Source of the DNA: an uncultured Chloroflexia bacterium
Lineage (GTDB): Bacteria > Chloroflexota > Limnocylindria > Limnocylindrales > CSP1-4
Assembly: GCA_963741445.1 (NCBI GenBank)
Contig: CAVUIE010000004.1
Coordinates: 187,756 to 251,755, forward strand
Direction: 5' to 3'
Length of the DNA: 64,000 nucleotides
The notes below the pieces were generated by a model, which was given only the letters and a program-made list of their open reading frames with translations, was not told where the DNA came from and searched no databases. The first letter of the stretch is position 1. Every line of letters begins with the position of its first letter. Below are positions 17,921-61,725 of the stretch, piece after piece. The position numbers were made by a program, and so were the translations under genes.

Positions 17921-18137
17921 CGGTCATCCTCCAGACGCCCCTCGGCAGGCGTCGATGCGTCGGTCGGCCGGACCCTGATGACTCCTGGGGCAGAGCCGGG
18001 GTCCTGTGGATAAGCCCGGAGTATAGCGCCGACCCCGCGGATGCCGACAAGCCTCCTTCGAGCGTCCCGGACGCCGGGAGGCGAGGCTCCGGTGCGGCCC
18101 GGCACCGCCGGGCGCGGCGTGGCCCGGCCGGCCCGCC

Positions 18138-56125: not shown

Positions 56126-56577
56126 CGGAGGATCACCAGGAGGTCGCCGAGGTCGACCGTCTCACCGGCGGCCACGGCCACCCGCTCGACCACCCCGTCG
56201 CGAGGAGCACGCACATCGTTCTCCATCTTCATGGCCTCGACGGCGAGGAGCCGGCTGCCGGCCGTGACCGCGTCGCCCGCGACGACCCCCACCGAGGCGA
56301 CCCGTCCCGGGATGATGGCACGGATGTCGAGCGGCCCGTCGACGGTCGAGGCGGCCCGCGCGGACGTCGCCCGGTCGCGGAGCGCGGCACGCTCGGCGTC
56401 TTCCACGACGAGCTCGAACCGCCAGCCGCCGACGACGACCTCGAGAGCGCGGTGGTCCAGCGGAAGGACCAGGGCGGGCGGGGCGTCCGGGGCTGCCCCG
56501 GGCGGCGTGTCGTCCATTTCGCCCAGGATGGCGCCGGTCGTCCGGTCCGTGACCCGGAGGCGCCTCACGCGGGCCAC
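56122..56577 (-). CDS. Biotin carboxyl carrier protein-like (biotinyl domain). The gene is intact.
   Basis: The C-terminus '[27 protein letters not shown]' carries the biotinylation motif EAMKM. The start is a TGATG-style overlap with the mcm stop. Confidence 0.7.
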
Positions 56578-58111
56578 CGGTCGACCGCATCGGCACGCGC
56601 CGAGGCGCGCCAGCCCGCGAGCGGTGCGGGGCCGACGGCGGGACCACGATCCGCGGCCATCCCGGCGACGGCCCGCGCCGCCACCTCCGCGGCGACGAGC
56701 GACGCCTGGTCGCGCGCCGCCTCGCCATCCCAGTGCTCCTCGACCCAGTCGATCGAGAGCACCGCATCCCGGAACGCCGGGTCGCGGGCCACGAACCGGT
56801 GGAACGGGAGCGTGGTCTGGATGCCGGCGACCTCGGTCTCGTCGAGGGCGAGCCGCAGGCGCTCGATCGCGGCCGACCGATCGTCGGCGACCACCATGAC
56901 CTTGGCGACGAGGTTGTCGTACTCGGGCGGGACCCGTGCCCCGGCTTCGCCCGCGGTGTCGACCCGGACCCCGGTCCCGGACGGCATCGACCAGTGGCGG
57001 ATCGTCCCCGGGGTCGGCGCGAAGCCGCGACCCGGGTCCTCGGCGGTCAGCCGCACCTCGATGGCGTGACGGGACGGCTCCCCTGCCCTCGCGGCGGCGC
57101 TGCGGGCGGCATCGGACAGCGGCCGGCCGGCGGCCAGCCAGAGCTGCTCGCGGACGATGTCGAGCCCGCTCACGAGCTCGGTGATGCCGTGCTCCACCTG
57201 GAGCCGGGTGTTGACCTCGAGGAACCAGACGGCCCCGTCCGGCTCGAGCAGGAACTCCGCGGTCGCCGCGTTCGTCAGGCCGGCCGCCGAGGCGATCCGG
57301 ACCGCCCGGTCGTGCAGCGCCAGACGGGCGTCCCGGGACAGTCCCGGCGCGGGCGCCTCTTCGACCAACTTCTGGTGTCGGCGCTGGATCGAGCAGTCCC
57401 GCTCGCCGATCGCCACGACGGCACCGGTCGCGTCACCGAGGAGCTGGACCTCGACGTGGCGGGCCGGGCGGACCTCCCGCTCAAGGTAGACCGTGCCGTC
57501 GCCGAATCCGCCGGCCGCCTCGGCCGACGCCGTCGCGAGCGCCGCCGGCAGGTCCGCGGCGCGCTCCACGCGGCGCATCCCCCGTCCCCCACCGCCGGCC
57601 GCGGCCTTCACGAGCAGCGGGAAGCCGATCGCCTCCGCCTCGGCGACGATCGCGTCGACCGTGTCGGGGCGGTCGACGGGGACCGCGTCGAGCGTCCCCG
57701 GGACGGTGTCGACGCCGGCGCTCCGGGCAAGCCGTCGCGCGCCGAGCTTGTCGCCCAGCGCCTCGATCACCGCGGCTGTCGGCCCGATGAACGTCAGCCC
57801 GGCGCCGGCCACGGATCGCGCGAAGGCCGCGCGCTCGGCGAGGAACCCGTAGCCGGGATGGACCGCCTGGGCGCCGCTGGTGGTCGCCGCGTCGAGGATG
57901 GCGTCGATCCGCAGATAGCTCTCGGCGGGAGCCGCCGGTCCGATGCGGACCGCGACGTCGGCGAGCCGGACGTGCATCGCGCCCGCGTCAGCGTCGCTGT
58001 AGACCGCCACGGTCTCGATGCCGAGATCTCGGCAGGCGCGGATGATCCGGACGGCGATCTCGCCCCGGTTGGCGATCAGGACCCGGTCGAACGGCCGGCC
58101 GTCTTTGTGCA
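56565..58111 (-). CDS. accC: Biotin carboxylase subunit (acetyl-/propionyl-CoA carboxylase alpha-like). The gene is intact. A TTG start lies inside the 16-bp palindrome.
   Basis: '(L)HKDGRPFDRVLIANRGEIAVRIIRACRDLGIETVAVYSDAD...GGGGRGMR...EVNTRLQVEH' gives the ATP-grasp and biotin-carboxylase motifs. The upstream ATG at 58157 would use AT-rich rare codons, so I prefer the TTG. Confidence 0.85.
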
Positions 58112-58116
58112 AAGAC
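58101..58116. promoter_or_regulatory. Palindrome copy 1: GTCTTTGtgCAAAGAC (7-bp arms). It overlaps the TTG start of the biotin carboxylase gene.
   Basis: The motif is seen directly in the sequence. It is related to the copies at 59708 and 61245. Confidence 0.5.
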
Positions 58117-58137
58117 GGGTCGTGGAGCGCGCCCGCG

Positions 58138-59690
<1,553 letters not shown>

Positions 59691-59707
59691 ATCCGCTCCC
59701 GTCTGGC

Positions 59708-59723
59708 GTCTTTGCGCAAGGAC
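59708..59723. promoter_or_regulatory. Palindrome copy 2: GTCTTTGcgCAAgGAC, about 18 bp upstream of the pccB start.
   Basis: The motif is seen directly in the sequence. Confidence 0.5.
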
Positions 59724-59765
59724 AGTGGCCATCATACCGGCGCGCGAGTGACCGATCCGGGTCGA

Positions 59766-59844
59766 GTTCTCCACATCGCGGATATCCACAGATTCGGTGA
59801 ACAACTCCGCGATGCTGTGGATAACCCGGGTCGCGTTAGCCACA
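59766..59844. promoter_or_regulatory. Cluster of four DnaA-box-like 9-mers in a GC-poorer stretch upstream of parA. It may be a DnaA-regulated par promoter or an origin-proximal element.
   Basis: TTCTCCACA lies at 59766-74 and ATATCCACA at 59782-90. TGTGGATAA at 59815-23 is the reverse complement of TTATCCACA, a perfect consensus. TTAGCCACA lies at 59836-44. Confidence 0.5.
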
Positions 59845-59929
59845 CGAAGGGCGTAGAGTTGCGCCCCACGCTTCCCCGTCCCCGCCGATGCGGGATGCCA
59901 AACGGACGACGATTCGAGGTGATGCCCCG

Positions 59930-60702
59930 GTGACGAACGTGATCGCGATCGCGAACCAGAAGGGCGGCGTCGGCAAGACGACCACCGCGATCAACCTCGC
60001 CGGTGCGCTTGCCGAAGAGGGCCATCGCGTCCTGTGCATCGACATGGATCCGCAGGCGAACCTGACGGCGGGTCTCGGCATCAACCTCAACACCGTCGAG
60101 CGCTCGATGGCGGATGTGCTCGCGGATGGACGGGCCACCCTGGAGGACGTGATCCTTCCGACCGAGATCGCCGGCATCGACGTCGCGCCGGCGCACATCG
60201 ACCTCGCGTCGACGGAGGGCGAGCTGTTCACGGCGCTCGGTCGCGAGCAGATCCTGCGCGAGGCGCTCGAGGGTCACGTGAGCGACGTACGAGTACGTGC
60301 TGATCGACTGCCCGCCCAACCTCGGCCTGCTGACGGTCAACGGGCTCGTCGCGGCGAACGGGGTGATCATCCCGGTCCAGACGCAGTACTACGCGATGAA
60401 GGGGCTCAACAACCTGGTGAAGGTCATCAACCTGATCCGGGTCAAGCTCAACCGCGACCTGCGGATCCTCGGCCTGCTGCCGACCTTCTTCGACGGCCGG
60501 ACCAACCTCGCGCGCGACATGCTCGACGAGCTGCGCGTCGTCGGCGACCACCACGTCTTCAACAGCATCGTGCGCAACACCGTCAAGCTCGGTGAGGCGC
60601 CGCTGGTCGGACGCCCCATCACGTCGTACGCCACCACGAGCGATGCCGCCCGCACCTATCGCGAGCTGGCACGGGAGGTGATCGACCTTGTCCCGGCCTG
60701 AT
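59930..60702 (+). CDS. parA: Chromosome partitioning ATPase ParA/Soj, with a single-base insertion near 60285.
   Basis: A GTG start sits behind a GAGGTGA RBS. '[46 protein letters not shown]' is the deviant Walker A. Then '[40 protein letters not shown]...' continues in the +1 frame. Confidence 0.85.
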
Positions 60703-61725
60703 TTCCGAGCCGCGGCCGCGCGGCGACTGTCCGAGGATCGCGAGCTCTCCCCCGCCATCGTCAGCCTGCTCGGCTCCGACGGGCCGGTCCGGTCGGTCGG
60801 CGTGCGCATCGTCGCCATCGATCGCATCGAGCCGAACCCCGAGCAGCCGCGTCTCGCGTTCGACCAGGCGACACTCGACGAGCTGGCCGCCTCCATCCGC
60901 GAGCATGGCGTCCTCCAGCCGATCCTCGTCCGCCCGCTCGACGGCACGCGCTTCCAGCTGATCGCCGGCGAGCGCCGCTGGCGCGCGTCGCGTCTCGCCG
61001 GGCTCGACACCATCCCGGCGCTGATCGAGGAGATCGACGACGACACGGCGCTCGAGATCGCGATCATCGAGAACCTCCAGCGCGAGGACCTCTCGCCGCT
61101 CGACGAAGCGGCGATGTACGACCGCATGGTGCGCGAGCACGGCTACAGCATCCGCAAGCTGGCCGACAAGCTCGGCAAGGACAAGGGCTATCTCGAGAAC
61201 CGCCTTCGCCTGGCCGACGCCCCGCCCGAGGTCCGCGAGCTGGTGTCCTTGCGCAAAGACACGCTCTCGCATGCCTACGAGCTGATGAAGGTCGACGACC
61301 CGCGCAAGCGACGACGGCTGGCCGCGCAGGTCGCCCGCGGCGAGCTGACGCTGGTCAAGCTCCGGGACAAGATCGAGGGCCGTCGCACCCGTCCGGCTCC
61401 CGACGAGCCGGCCGACCGAGCGTCGAGGTCGAGGTCGACTGGCCGGTCGGCCGCCGTCGCGGCCGCCGGCGCCGGCGCCGGCCGGCCCCCGAGGAGGACT
61501 GGTCGCCCGTCGCCCGGCAGCCGATCGGCGAGAACTCGCTGGTCGACGCGAAGCAGCGCCTCGGCGACGCGGTCGAGGAGCTGGTCGACGTCCTCCGCGA
61601 TCCCGACGGTGCGCCACTCGATCCCGGACACCGACCGGGCGAACCTCGCGAAGTACCTGACGATCTCGAAGCTCAAGCTCGAGAACGTGATCGCGATGGT
61701 CCGGAGCGACGAACCGGGCGGCTGA
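60688..61725 (+). CDS. parB: Chromosome partitioning protein ParB/Spo0J. There may be a frameshift in the low-complexity C-terminal third.
   Basis: A TTG start precedes 'IVAIDRIEPNPEQPRLAFDQATLDELAASIREHGVLQPILVRP...FQLIAGERRWRASRLAGLDTIPALIEE'. This includes the ParB box and HTH. Confidence 0.8.
   Translation: MSRPDFRAAAARRLSEDRELSPAIVSLLGSDGPVRSVGVRIVAIDRIEPNPEQPRLAFDQATLDELAASIREHGVLQPILVRPLDGTRFQLIAGERRWRASRLAGLDTIPALIEEIDDDTALEIAIIENLQREDLSPLDEAAMYDRMVREHGYSIRKLADKLGKDKGYLENRLRLADAPPEVRELVSLRKDTLSHAYELMKVDDPRKRRRLAAQVARGELTLVKLRDKIEGRRTRPAPDEPADRASRSRSTGRSAAVAAAGAGAGRPPRRTGRPSPGSRSARTRWSTRSSASATRSRSWSTSSAIPTVRHSIPDTDRANLAKYLTISKLKLENVIAMVRSDEPGG
61245..61260. promoter_or_regulatory. Palindrome copy 3: GTCcTTGcgCAAAGAC, inside the parB coding sequence (candidate parS-like site).
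   Basis: It encodes ...S-L-R-K-D... using the rare codons TTG and AAA in a genome whose codons are about 90% GC3. Confidence 0.5.

What the first reader, a model, noticed from the sequence alone, without database searches (positions are those of the whole stretch)
58101..61260. Three copies of a 16-bp palindrome (consensus GTCTTTGCGCAAAGAC) lie around pccB, accC and parAB. One is embedded in parB with rare codons, which suggests a non-canonical parS-like site or a shared operator.
The copies are GTCTTTGtgCAAAGAC at 58101-58116, GTCTTTGcgCAAgGAC at 59708-59723 and GTCcTTGcgCAAAGAC at 61245-61260. Each differs from the perfect palindrome at only one or two positions. A/T-rich 16-mers are very rare in this 72% GC sequence, and I saw no other copy in the window.

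Copy 3 lies inside parB. It forces the rare codons TTG (Leu) and AAA (Lys), which points to selection on the DNA rather than the protein. B. subtilis spo0J is known to harbour a parS site in the same way. Copy 1 overlaps the TTG start codon of the biotin carboxylase gene. Copy 2 sits about 18 bp upstream of the pccB start, next to the DnaA-box cluster.

The canonical parS (TGTTTCACGTGAAACA) is absent from the window. The motif has a TGCGCA core reminiscent of secondary-replicon parS sites. The alternative is an operator for a dimeric regulator of the biotin-carboxylase genes, for example a TetR- or BirA-type protein.
Basis: seen in the sequence. Interest (0 to 1): 0.65.

Follow-up and report, generated by a model that had tools for sequence, protein, structure and literature searches.

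The report
Lineage-specific non-canonical parS centromere sites
The three palindromes are real, conserved across a whole class of Chloroflexota (Limnocylindria), and are most likely an unusual 18-bp chromosome-partition (parS) site read by a re-specified ParB protein, in place of the near-universal bacterial parS sequence.

Summary

The window comes from a Limnocylindria (CSP1-4, Chloroflexota) chromosome. In 80 ParB loci chosen by protein similarity alone, 79 carry the palindrome at the same parB codons. Synonymous positions there are fixed against codon bias: TTG 66/72 against 7% background, AAA 52/77 against 8%. Further copies lie upstream of parA/pccB and at the pccB-accC junction. None lies downstream of parB.

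The full site is 18 bp, TGTCTTTGCGCAAAGACA. Canonical parS is absent from 1.08 Mb of these loci. The ParB keeps its CTP-binding motifs but differs at all four known specificity positions (K, R, D, S against R, T, A, G).

Two related ParB groups on plasmid-like DNA, with no pcc genes, carry sister palindromes beside or inside their own parB:
- TGTCTGGACGTCCAGACA
- TGTCTGTATATACAGACA

So the site varies with ParB, not with the carboxylase genes.

Verdict: a non-canonical, lineage-wide parS, a new variant of a known kind. ParB binding is inferred, not shown. A dedicated metabolic operator and an RNA hairpin are poorly supported.

The parts
58101..58116 (.). Site 1: GTCTTTGTGCAAAGAC, with C...G flanks making an 18-bp palindrome. 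It lies at the pccB-accC junction.
   Evidence: The site is present in 31 loci covering this position in the unbiased sample, and 23 of them are perfect. It is intergenic in L003.
59708..59723 (.). Site 2: GTCTTTGCGCAAGGAC, in the pccB-parA divergent intergenic region. It is 23 nt upstream of the pccB start and about 206 nt upstream of the parA start.
   Evidence: It is present in 41 of about 43 loci covering this position. The flanking bases are not conserved, while the 16 core positions are 80-100% conserved, apart from positions 4/13.
61245..61260 (.). Site 3: GTCCTTGCGCAAAGAC (18-mer TGTCCTTGCGCAAAGACA at 61244-61261), inside parB. It encodes V186-S-L-R-K-D191.
   Evidence: In 79 of 80 orthologues the site is within 2 mismatches at the same codons, with synonymous positions fixed against codon bias.
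60688..61725 (+). parB: a ParB_N + HTH_ParB protein of 345 aa. The CTP-binding motifs are intact (NPEQPR, GERRWRA, ENLQREDL).
   Evidence: Pfam, alignment to solved ParB/Noc structures and 7,975 homologues with E <= 1e-20, the closest at 70-83% identity.
61174..61215 (+). Codons for the ParB recognition helix GKDKGYLENRLRLA. K166 and R172 replace Caulobacter R173 and T179. D177 (Caulobacter A184) is the next codon, 61216-61218. S194 (61267-61269) replaces G201.
   Evidence: Gapless alignment to B. subtilis Noc and Spo0J, with numbering from PMC7383237. The helix is invariant across the lineage.
59930..60701 (+). parA: a Walker-type ParA/AAA_31 ATPase. It is split in this window by a 1-base insertion near 60288.
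   Evidence: Pfam. It is an intact 256-aa gene in L001-L003. The insertion shows against L160 and L096.
59782..59824 (.). A pair of inverted DnaA boxes, ATATCCACA (59782-59790) and TGTGGATAA (59816-59824), between site 2 and parA.
   Evidence: The pair keeps the same spacing in 42 of 43 loci that include this region; L238 shows only one box.
58138..59684 (-). pccB (propionyl-CoA carboxylase beta / carboxyltransferase). It is frameshifted in this assembly and is flanked by sites 1 and 2.
   Evidence: ORF fragments. Intact 513-aa Carboxyl_trans genes in L001-L003. Insertions shown.
56565..58157 (-). accC (biotin carboxylase). Site 1 lies at or just before its 5' end.
   Evidence: Pfam.

Best explanation
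The palindrome is the centromere-like loading site (parS) of the chromosomal ParABS partition system of Limnocylindria. Its full form is the 18-mer TGTCTTTGCGCAAAGACA.

A dimer of the ParB encoded at 60688-61725 would recognise it through a re-specified helix-turn-helix (GKDKGYLENRLRLA...SHAYEL). ParB would then bind CTP, close into a clamp and slide onto flanking DNA. From three to five sites spread over 3-8 kb (inside parB, upstream of parA/pccB, at the pccB-accC junction and, in some species, further into the mcm operon) this builds the partition complex that ParA moves.

Shown here:
- the sites exist and cluster at the par locus;
- they are conserved at the DNA level, against codon bias;
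- canonical parS is absent from the sampled par loci;
- ParB differs at the known specificity residues;
- the inner bases of the palindrome vary with the ParB subgroup in three independent contexts.

Inferred: physical binding, CTP-dependent spreading and the segregation role. Because site 2 lies between the pccB and parA starts, ParB binding may also damp transcription of these operons. That is a secondary, untested inference.
For: 1. Statistics: 3 copies in the window against 0.10 expected.

2. Orthologous conservation: all three sites occur at the same places in L001-L003, whose ParBs are 72-82% identical.

3. Protein-ascertained sample of 80 metagenome loci. In 79 of 80 the site is within 2 mismatches at the same parB codons. 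Codon counts against background are GTG 80/80 (0.28), TCY/TCA 80/80 with no TCG or AGC (0.62), TTG 66/72 Leu (0.07), CGC 80/80 (0.45), AAA 52/77 (0.08) and GAC 80/80. Neighbouring codons vary freely.

4. Position histogram: 79 sites at +557, 41 at -1000 to -1500, 31 at about -2600 to -3000, 6 at -4500 to -5000, 2 at -8000, and none downstream of parB.

5. Intergenic sites are footprints: the core is conserved and the flanks are not.

6. Genome scan. 67 of the 120 returned blocks have Chloroflexota record titles and 3 more are contigs binned to other phyla that carry par-locus genes. 64 of these 70 blocks lie at this locus. Of the other 6, 4 are high-GC Limnocylindria-like blocks elsewhere and 2 are other Chloroflexota.

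7. In 1.08 Mb from 149 Limnocylindria loci there are 303 sites within 2 mismatches, and no canonical parS within 2 mismatches.

8. ParB has K166/R172/D177/S194 where Caulobacter ParB has R173/T179/A184/G201 and Noc has Q/K/K/R. R173 and G201 contact parS and are conserved in about 1,800 ParBs. The variant helix is invariant in the lineage.

9. Variation with ParB subgroup. The sister ParBs (GKGKGY.E[DS]RLRL) lie on plasmid/ICE-like contigs without pcc genes. They carry 7 perfect copies of TGTCTGGACGTCCAGACA, 48-64 bp upstream of parA and inside parB. One copy sits at the same codon window, encoding VSGRPDT. The Chlorohelix allophototropha plasmid ParB (GKDKSYIENRL) has two perfect TGTCTGTATATACAGACA copies just downstream of parB. 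The site types are mutually exclusive between groups.

10. ParB is the only DNA-binding protein annotated within +/-10 kb in three relatives.
Against: - No binding experiment exists, and the organisms are uncultured.
- Origin proximity is not established. The window has no dnaA gene, and only a pair of DnaA boxes lies beside parA.
Four singleton copies lie elsewhere in Limnocylindria-like contigs (L098, L101, L144, L149).
- I could not test whether these genomes also hold a second, canonical ParB/parS pair.
- Two to four of the sites sit exactly at the 5' ends of pccB, accC and mcm, which an operator model would also predict.
- The same 16-mer recurs at least 7 times in an unrelated phage-like contig. 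No ParB homologue was found in the fetched parts of that contig, so other proteins could read this sequence.
Confidence: 0.82

Rival explanations
1. ParB binds these sites, but their main role is transcriptional, as with KorB. ParB-CTP clamps loaded at each cistron boundary would repress or tune the pccB-accC-mcm and parAB operons rather than serve as the segregation centromere.
For: - Sites sit at the 5' ends of pccB and accC and, in some species, mcm.
- Site 2 lies between the divergent pccB and parA starts.
- There is a weak KorB-domain hit (20 bits against a 22.3 cut-off) and a KorB structure match at E = 1.8e-14.
- The nearest ParB relatives are on plasmid-like DNA.
Against: - A ParA partner is always adjacent and co-oriented.
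- The system is conserved in chromosomes of 0.4-3.1 Mb across more than 60 species-level genomes.
- A site inside parB, and one in a convergent intergenic region (L044), have no promoter to control.
- The promoter scan finds no sigma-70-like promoter at any site.
- The two roles are not mutually exclusive.
Confidence: 0.09
2. The palindrome is the operator of a dedicated dimeric transcription factor, encoded elsewhere, that controls propionyl-CoA carboxylase and methylmalonyl-CoA mutase genes. Candidates are TetR-, BirA- or ScfR/PccR-type proteins. The copy in parB would be incidental.
For: - Most copies adjoin pcc and mcm genes.
- The core TTTGCGCAAA resembles the TTTGC(A/G)AA motif of PrpR/RamB/PccR propionate regulators (PMC6765138).
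- The same 16-mer lies just upstream of ribosome-binding sites in phage-like contigs, as an operator would.
Against: - The parB copy is the most constant of all (79/80) and is kept by synonymous-site selection.
- Sister palindromes with the same arms and layout occur beside ParAB on plasmid-like DNA that has no pcc or mcm genes.
- No regulator gene is conserved within +/-10 kb.
- The ScfR motif is 2 bp shorter in the centre, so the half-site spacing does not match.
- Nearly all copies in the lineage lie in this one locus.
Confidence: 0.06
3. The element acts at the RNA level, as a 6-bp hairpin with a GCGC loop at cistron boundaries that affects mRNA processing, stability or translation.
For: The sites fall at intercistronic junctions of the pcc-mcm transcript. 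A terminator-like stem overlaps site 1 on the plus strand.
Against: - The commonest variant, GTCCTTGCGCAAAGAC, puts a C.A mismatch in the middle of the stem.
- Other variants (GTCTGTG......CACAGAC...CAGAGAC) also break pairs, with no compensating change.
- Position 4/13 changes are anti-correlated rather than compensatory: TCC+AAA and TCT+AAG dominate, and TCC+AAG occurs in 2 of 79.
- Site 2 lies upstream of divergent genes.
- The sister palindromes sit upstream of parA.
Confidence: 0.02

Closest known systems
Canonical chromosomal parS (TGTTNCACGTGAAACA) with ParB/Spo0J, including the parS inside B. subtilis spo0J
   Same: - A short perfect or near-perfect palindrome in a few copies clustered around parAB, one of them inside parB.
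- ParB has ParB_N and HTH_ParB domains with intact CTP-binding motifs.
- An adjacent Walker-type ParA.
- The outer TGT...ACA bases are shared.
   Different: - The site is 18 bp rather than 16 bp, and the inner bases are unrelated (CTTTGC|GCAAAG against TTCAC|GTGAA).
- There is no match to the consensus at 3 or fewer mismatches in the window, or at 2 or fewer in 1.08 Mb of related loci.
- The ParB specificity positions are K/R/D/S instead of R/T/A/G.
- The in-gene copy lies in the codons of the DNA-binding domain. In spo0J it lies in the linker, but that placement is from my memory of the sequence and was not tested here.
Noc/NBS of Firmicutes (a ParB paralogue re-specified to ATTTCCCGGGAAAT-type sites)
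   Same: It is a ParB-family protein whose DNA specificity changed through the same four interface positions (PMC7383237). Noc structures are the best-scoring solved relatives.
   Different: - The residues here are K/R/D/S, not Q/K/K/R.
- No NBS-like sequence occurs in the loci.
- The protein is encoded with ParA in a parAB operon, and I saw no second ParB. This looks like the primary partition protein, not a paralogue with a nucleoid-occlusion role. I did not examine the N-terminal membrane-targeting helix.
Plasmid and secondary-replicon ParABS systems with replicon-specific parS (for example Burkholderia and Vibrio secondary chromosomes; KorB/OB of IncP plasmids)
   Same: - A replicon-specific palindrome read by a diverged ParB.
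- The nearest relatives of this ParB are on plasmid/ICE-like DNA of Chloroflexota, each with its own TGTCT-N8-AGACA site placed upstream of parA or in or after parB.
   Different: - Here the system sits on the main chromosome (contigs up to 3.1 Mb), in conserved synteny with core metabolic genes across a whole class.
- The comparison with the Burkholderia, Vibrio and KorB site sequences rests on memory and was not tested.
ScfR-family operators (PrpR, RamB, PccR): TTTGC(A/G)AA
   Same: A similar half-site, TTTGC, next to propionyl-CoA assimilation genes (PMC6765138).
   Different: - The centre is 2 bp longer (TTTGCGCAAA).
- The GTC/GAC arms are conserved.
- No ScfR-type gene lies nearby.
- A copy is embedded in parB, and sister sites occur without pcc genes.

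Membership tests
Canonical parS (Livny consensus TGTTNCACGTGAAACA) | Sequence matches the 16-bp consensus within a few mismatches | tested here: not met
   No match at 3 or fewer mismatches in the window. No match at 2 or fewer in 1.08 Mb from 149 related loci.
parS in the functional sense (ParB loading site or centromere) | Short inverted repeat present in several copies clustered at or near parAB | tested here: met
   Three copies within 3.2 kb around parAB in the window. Three to five copies per locus in relatives, and none downstream of parB. 64 of 68 Limnocylindria-type blocks from the genome scan lie at this locus.
parS in the functional sense (ParB loading site or centromere) | Conserved as DNA, independent of coding needs | tested here: met
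   Synonymous positions in parB are fixed against codon bias. Intergenic copies are conserved islands within variable flanks.
parS in the functional sense (ParB loading site or centromere) | Site sequence varies together with the cognate ParB's DNA-binding residues | tested here: met
   Three ParB subgroups have three palindromes with shared TGTCT/AGACA arms and different inner bases. The types are mutually exclusive.
parS in the functional sense (ParB loading site or centromere) | Specific binding by ParB and CTP-dependent clamp loading | not testable with these tools
   Needs EMSA, BLI, cross-linking or ChIP-seq.
parS in the functional sense (ParB loading site or centromere) | Location in the origin-proximal part of the chromosome | tested here: inconclusive
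   A conserved pair of DnaA boxes lies beside parA.
Chromosomal ParB (CTPase clamp) | ParB_N domain with GERRxRA and ENLQR motifs, HTH_ParB domain, adjacent ParA | tested here: met
   Pfam ParB_N at 9.8e-36 and HTH_ParB at 2.4e-17. GERRWRA and ENLQREDL align with solved ParBs. ParA is adjacent.
Chromosomal ParB (CTPase clamp) | parS-contacting residues R173 and G201 (Caulobacter numbering) conserved | tested here: not met
   K166 and S194 occupy these positions. They are invariant in the lineage.
ScfR (PrpR/RamB/PccR) operator | 8-bp palindrome TTTGC(A/G)AA, usually paired, with an ScfR regulator gene nearby | tested here: not met
   The core here is TTTGCGCAAA, 2 bp longer. No XRE/ScfR-type gene appears in the Pfam-labelled gene calls within +/-10 kb of three relatives.
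Noc binding site (NBS) | Match to TATTTCCCGGGAAATA, and Q/K/K/R specificity residues | tested here: not met
   No NBS within 3 mismatches in 1.08 Mb. The residues are K/R/D/S.

The most novel reading that the evidence does not exclude
A whole bacterial class has replaced the near-universal chromosomal centromere with a different 18-bp parS. The ParB that reads it has its nearest relatives in plasmid/ICE partition proteins of Chloroflexota, so this would be a chromosomal take-over by, or exchange with, a mobile-element ParABS.

In addition, one parS copy is written into the codons of ParB's own DNA-binding domain. VSLRKDT in Limnocylindria corresponds to VSGRPDT, encoded by the sister palindrome at the same alignment position. 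A change of centromere sequence would therefore necessarily change the reader protein within the same 18 bp.
Probability: 0.35. Interest if true: 0.75.

Novelty: new variant of a known kind. Interest (0 to 1): 0.6.

Why it matters
Chromosomal parS is one of the most conserved DNA signals in bacteria. It is 'mainly TGTTNCACGTGAAACA' in the vast majority of chromosomes (PMC7022226). It is routinely used to locate origins and to annotate partition systems.

An abundant soil and freshwater class that uses a different 18-bp site would be missed by every consensus-based parS search.

The three related palindromes share the form TGTCT-N8-AGACA. Each comes with its own ParB variant. Together they form a natural series for studying how ParB specificity evolves beyond the ParB/Noc pair. 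They also offer candidate orthogonal ParB/parS pairs for DNA-labelling tools.

The site embedded in the codons of the DNA-binding domain is an unusual case of a protein and its target sharing the same nucleotides.

Tried and rejected
- **Canonical parS and NBS.** Searched in the window and in 1.08 Mb of related loci; absent.
- **RNA hairpin.** The variants break pairs without compensation, so I rejected it.
- **ScfR/PccR-type operator.** The motif is 2 bp shorter and no regulator gene lies nearby.
- **Promoter placement.** A TATGAT hexamer 7 nt from site 2 on the pccB strand is conserved only among close relatives, not across the class. The sigma-70 scan found no promoter at any site, so no claim is made.
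- **ParB in the phage-like contigs.** I looked for a ParB homologue in the fetched pieces of the phage-like contigs that carry the same 16-mer; none was found.
- **dnaA in the window.** Searched by motif; none found.
- **GC skew.** Over 64 kb it is too noisy to place an origin.
- **Literature.** A search for either palindrome returned nothing.
- **Third ParB group** (GKSKGYVQNRLRLL, Chloroflexia). It has single CGTATTT-N4-AAATACG-type palindromes inside parB. There are too few copies to count as evidence.


Full report
**Observation.** The window holds exactly three matches to GTCTTTGCGCAAAGAC at up to three mismatches. They are at 58101, 59708 and 61245, each with one mismatch. Shuffles give 0.10 on average, and none of 100 reached three. 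Canonical parS is absent at up to three mismatches.

The local gene order is:
- mcm (-), BCCP (-), accC (-), pccB (-)
- a divergent intergenic region containing DnaA boxes
- parA (+), parB (+)
- a UbiA-family gene (-)

Several genes are split by single-base insertions relative to close relatives. These look like assembly errors rather than pseudogenes.

**Where the window comes from.** ParB has thousands of homologues. The closest are 70-83% identical, on MAG contigs of up to 2.3 Mb.
- 67 blocks have Chloroflexota record titles, mostly Candidatus Limnocylindria/Limnocylindrales and CSP1-4.
- 3 more are contigs binned to other phyla that carry the same par-locus genes.
- 64 of these 70 blocks lie at the parAB-pccB-accC-mcm locus.
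- 4 high-GC Chloroflexia blocks carry a single copy elsewhere.
- The remaining blocks, from other phyla, are single hits of the kind chance would give in 596 Gb.

**Conservation.** In three relatives fetched through their ParB proteins (72-82% identity), synteny is the same and all three sites sit at the same places. In L003, site 1 lies between the pccB stop and the accC start. It is also in a different frame relative to accC than in the window, so coding does not explain its conservation.

To avoid ascertainment by the motif, I took 80 metagenome loci found by ParB peptides alone. In 79 of them the palindrome is present within two mismatches at the same parB codons. The table gives codon use at the site against the background in the same genes.

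| Residue | Codon at the site | Count | Background |
|---|---|---|---|
| Val | GTG | 80/80 | 0.28 |
| Ser | TCC, TCT or TCA (never TCG or AGC) | 80/80 | TCG + AGC = 0.62 |
| Leu | TTG | 66/72 | 0.07 |
| Arg | CGC | 80/80 | 0.45 |
| Lys | AAA | 52/77 | 0.08 |
| Asp | GAC | 80/80 | 0.78 |

The next three codons vary freely among synonymous forms. This is selection on the DNA, not only on the protein.

Relative to the parB start, the sites fall into narrow bins:
- +557: 79 sites
- -1000 to -1500 (upstream of parA, 5' of pccB): 41 sites in about 43 loci
- about -2600 to -3000 (pccB-accC junction): 31 sites
- -4500 to -5000: 6 sites in 17 loci
- -8000: 2 sites in 9 loci
- downstream of parB: none, in up to 57 loci

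The intergenic copies are conserved islands in otherwise variable sequence. The flanking bases extend the palindrome to 18 bp, TGTCTTTGCGCAAAGACA, with C...G flanks at the pccB-accC junction.

In 1.08 Mb from 149 Limnocylindria loci there are 303 copies within two mismatches. No canonical parS occurs within two mismatches, and no Noc-binding site within three.

**The protein.** ParB has ParB_N and HTH_ParB domains. It aligns without gaps to solved ParB, Spo0J and Noc structures, and NPxQPR, GERRWRA and ENLQREDL are intact.

Jalal et al. showed that four interface positions set parS-versus-NBS specificity: Caulobacter R173, T179, A184 and G201, which are Q, K, K and R in Noc. R173 and G201 contact parS and are conserved across about 1,800 ParBs (PMC7383237). 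By gapless alignment to Noc (offset 15), this ParB has K166, R172, D177 and S194. The helix GKDKGY[LIV]ENRLRLA and the segment RKDTLSHAYEL are invariant through the lineage. A changed DNA target is therefore expected.

**The palindrome varies with the ParB subgroup.** Among the 150 best cluster representatives of 1.84 billion proteins, canonical ParBs show GKSR...N..RLL...GHARAL. A distinct clade has lysine at the R173 position.

| ParB group | Recognition helix | Genomic context | Palindrome and placement |
|---|---|---|---|
| Limnocylindria | GKDKGY[LIV]ENRLRLA | Main chromosome, beside pcc and mcm genes | TGTCTTTGCGCAAAGACA; inside parB, upstream of parA, at the pccB-accC junction |
| Sister group | GKGKGY.E[DS]RLRL...RPDTLTHAREI | Plasmid/ICE-like contigs (TraG/TrwB, Replic_Relax, Mrr and methylase genes); no pcc genes | TGTCTGGACGTCCAGACA, 7 perfect copies in 3 contigs; 48-64 bp upstream of parA and inside parB |
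| Chlorohelix allophototropha plasmid (cultured) | GKDKSYIENRL...RRPDTL | 241-kb plasmid, 45% GC in the fetched stretch | TGTCTGTATATACAGACA, 2 perfect copies 36 and 120 bp after parB |

In the sister group, one in-gene copy sits at +553 and encodes VSGRPDT. That is the same alignment position as VSLRKDT in Limnocylindria.

The three palindromes share TGTCT...AGACA arms and differ in the inner eight bases. They are mutually exclusive between groups. The only thing these contexts have in common is the ParA-ParB pair, so the palindrome goes with ParB and not with the carboxylase genes.

A third group, from Chloroflexia, has single CGTATTT-N4-AAATACG palindromes inside parB. I treat this as a lead only.

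**Rivals.**
- *Dedicated metabolic regulator.* The positions at the 5' ends of pccB, accC and mcm would fit, as would the resemblance to the TTTGC(A/G)AA motif of PrpR/RamB/PccR (PMC6765138). Against it, that motif is 2 bp shorter in the centre and no regulator gene is conserved within 10 kb. The most constant copy is inside parB, and one copy lies between convergent genes (L044). The sister sites occur without pcc genes.
- *RNA hairpin.* The commonest variants break the stem without compensation.
- *KorB-like regulatory role for ParB at these sites.* This cannot be excluded, and it is compatible with a centromere role. The promoter scan gives no support either way.

**Limits.**
- Binding is inferred, not shown.
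- Origin proximity is unresolved.
- The genome scan was truncated.
- I could not test for a second, canonical ParB/parS elsewhere in these genomes.
- The same 16-mer occurs at least seven times in one phage-like contig, in operator-like positions, with no ParB in the fetched parts.

**Known or new.** Neither palindrome appears in the searchable literature. Reviews describe chromosomal parS as highly conserved (PMC7022226). I therefore file this as a new variant of a known kind: a lineage-wide, non-canonical chromosomal parS with a re-specified ParB, belonging to a family of TGTCT-N8-AGACA sites that is otherwise found on Chloroflexota plasmid-like DNA.

Noticed in passing
window 59782-59790 and 59816-59824: A pair of inverted DnaA boxes (ATATCCACA-N25-TGTGGATAA) lies 100-150 bp upstream of parA. 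The pair is kept at the same spacing in 42 of 43 related loci that include this region, and the sequence between the boxes is conserved among close relatives. It could be DnaA control of the parA promoter or part of an origin. I could not decide between these.
   Followed up: partly
window 58480-60290 (for example near 58517, 59213 and 60288): The window has single extra bases at conserved coding positions relative to two relatives. They split pccB and parA into fragments, and mcm is also broken near its 3' end. The pattern fits errors of a long-read assembly rather than pseudogenes.
   Followed up: partly
L007, L010, L026, L027 (IMGVR_UViG_3300022864_000001, 116 kb, 53% GC); also L008, L014, L033: The same 16-mer occurs at least 7 times in one phage-like contig, in perfect or GCAC-centre form. 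Several copies lie directly upstream of a ribosome-binding site and ATG, as an operator would. The flanks are mostly A...T, not T...A. No ParB homologue was found in the fetched pieces.
   Followed up: partly
L029 4050 and 4280; L030 5437 and 5667 (viral contigs, 63-64% GC): Two perfect copies of the full 18-mer TGTCTTTGCGCAAAGACA lie 230 bp apart in high-GC viral contigs. This could be a phage or plasmid of Limnocylindria that borrows the host ParB. I did not test this.
   Followed up: no
L246 4807-4824 and 4891-4908 (Chlorohelix allophototropha plasmid NZ_CP128402.1): Two perfect TGTCTGTATATACAGACA palindromes lie just after a ParB with a GKDKSYIENRL helix, in a cultured organism. This could make the site family experimentally accessible.
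   Followed up: partly
L243 10757 and 10823; L244 10797; L245 10787: A third ParB group (GKSKGYVQNRLRLL) is found in Chloroflexia, on mobile-element-like DNA, preceded by a small HTH_17 gene. It has CGTATTT-N4-AAATACG-type palindromes inside the parB linker region.
   Followed up: partly
L098 1039, L101 2657, L144 985, L149 2620, L044 2686: Single copies of the palindrome lie outside the par locus in Limnocylindria-like contigs. In L044 the copy sits between the convergent ends of the methylmalonyl-CoA epimerase and sucD genes, where no promoter is expected.
   Followed up: partly
window 61245-61260 and the same codons in L160-L239: The in-gene copy almost always keeps exactly one deviation from the perfect palindrome: TCC+AAA in 34 loci or TCT+AAG in 23. 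The perfect form (TCT+AAA) occurs in 3 of 79 and the double deviation (TCC+AAG) in 2. This may reflect a compromise between codon preference and site strength, or selection against a perfect site inside the gene.
   Followed up: no
window 18005-18013: A second perfect DnaA box (TGTGGATAA) lies far from the par locus. I did not examine it.
   Followed up: no
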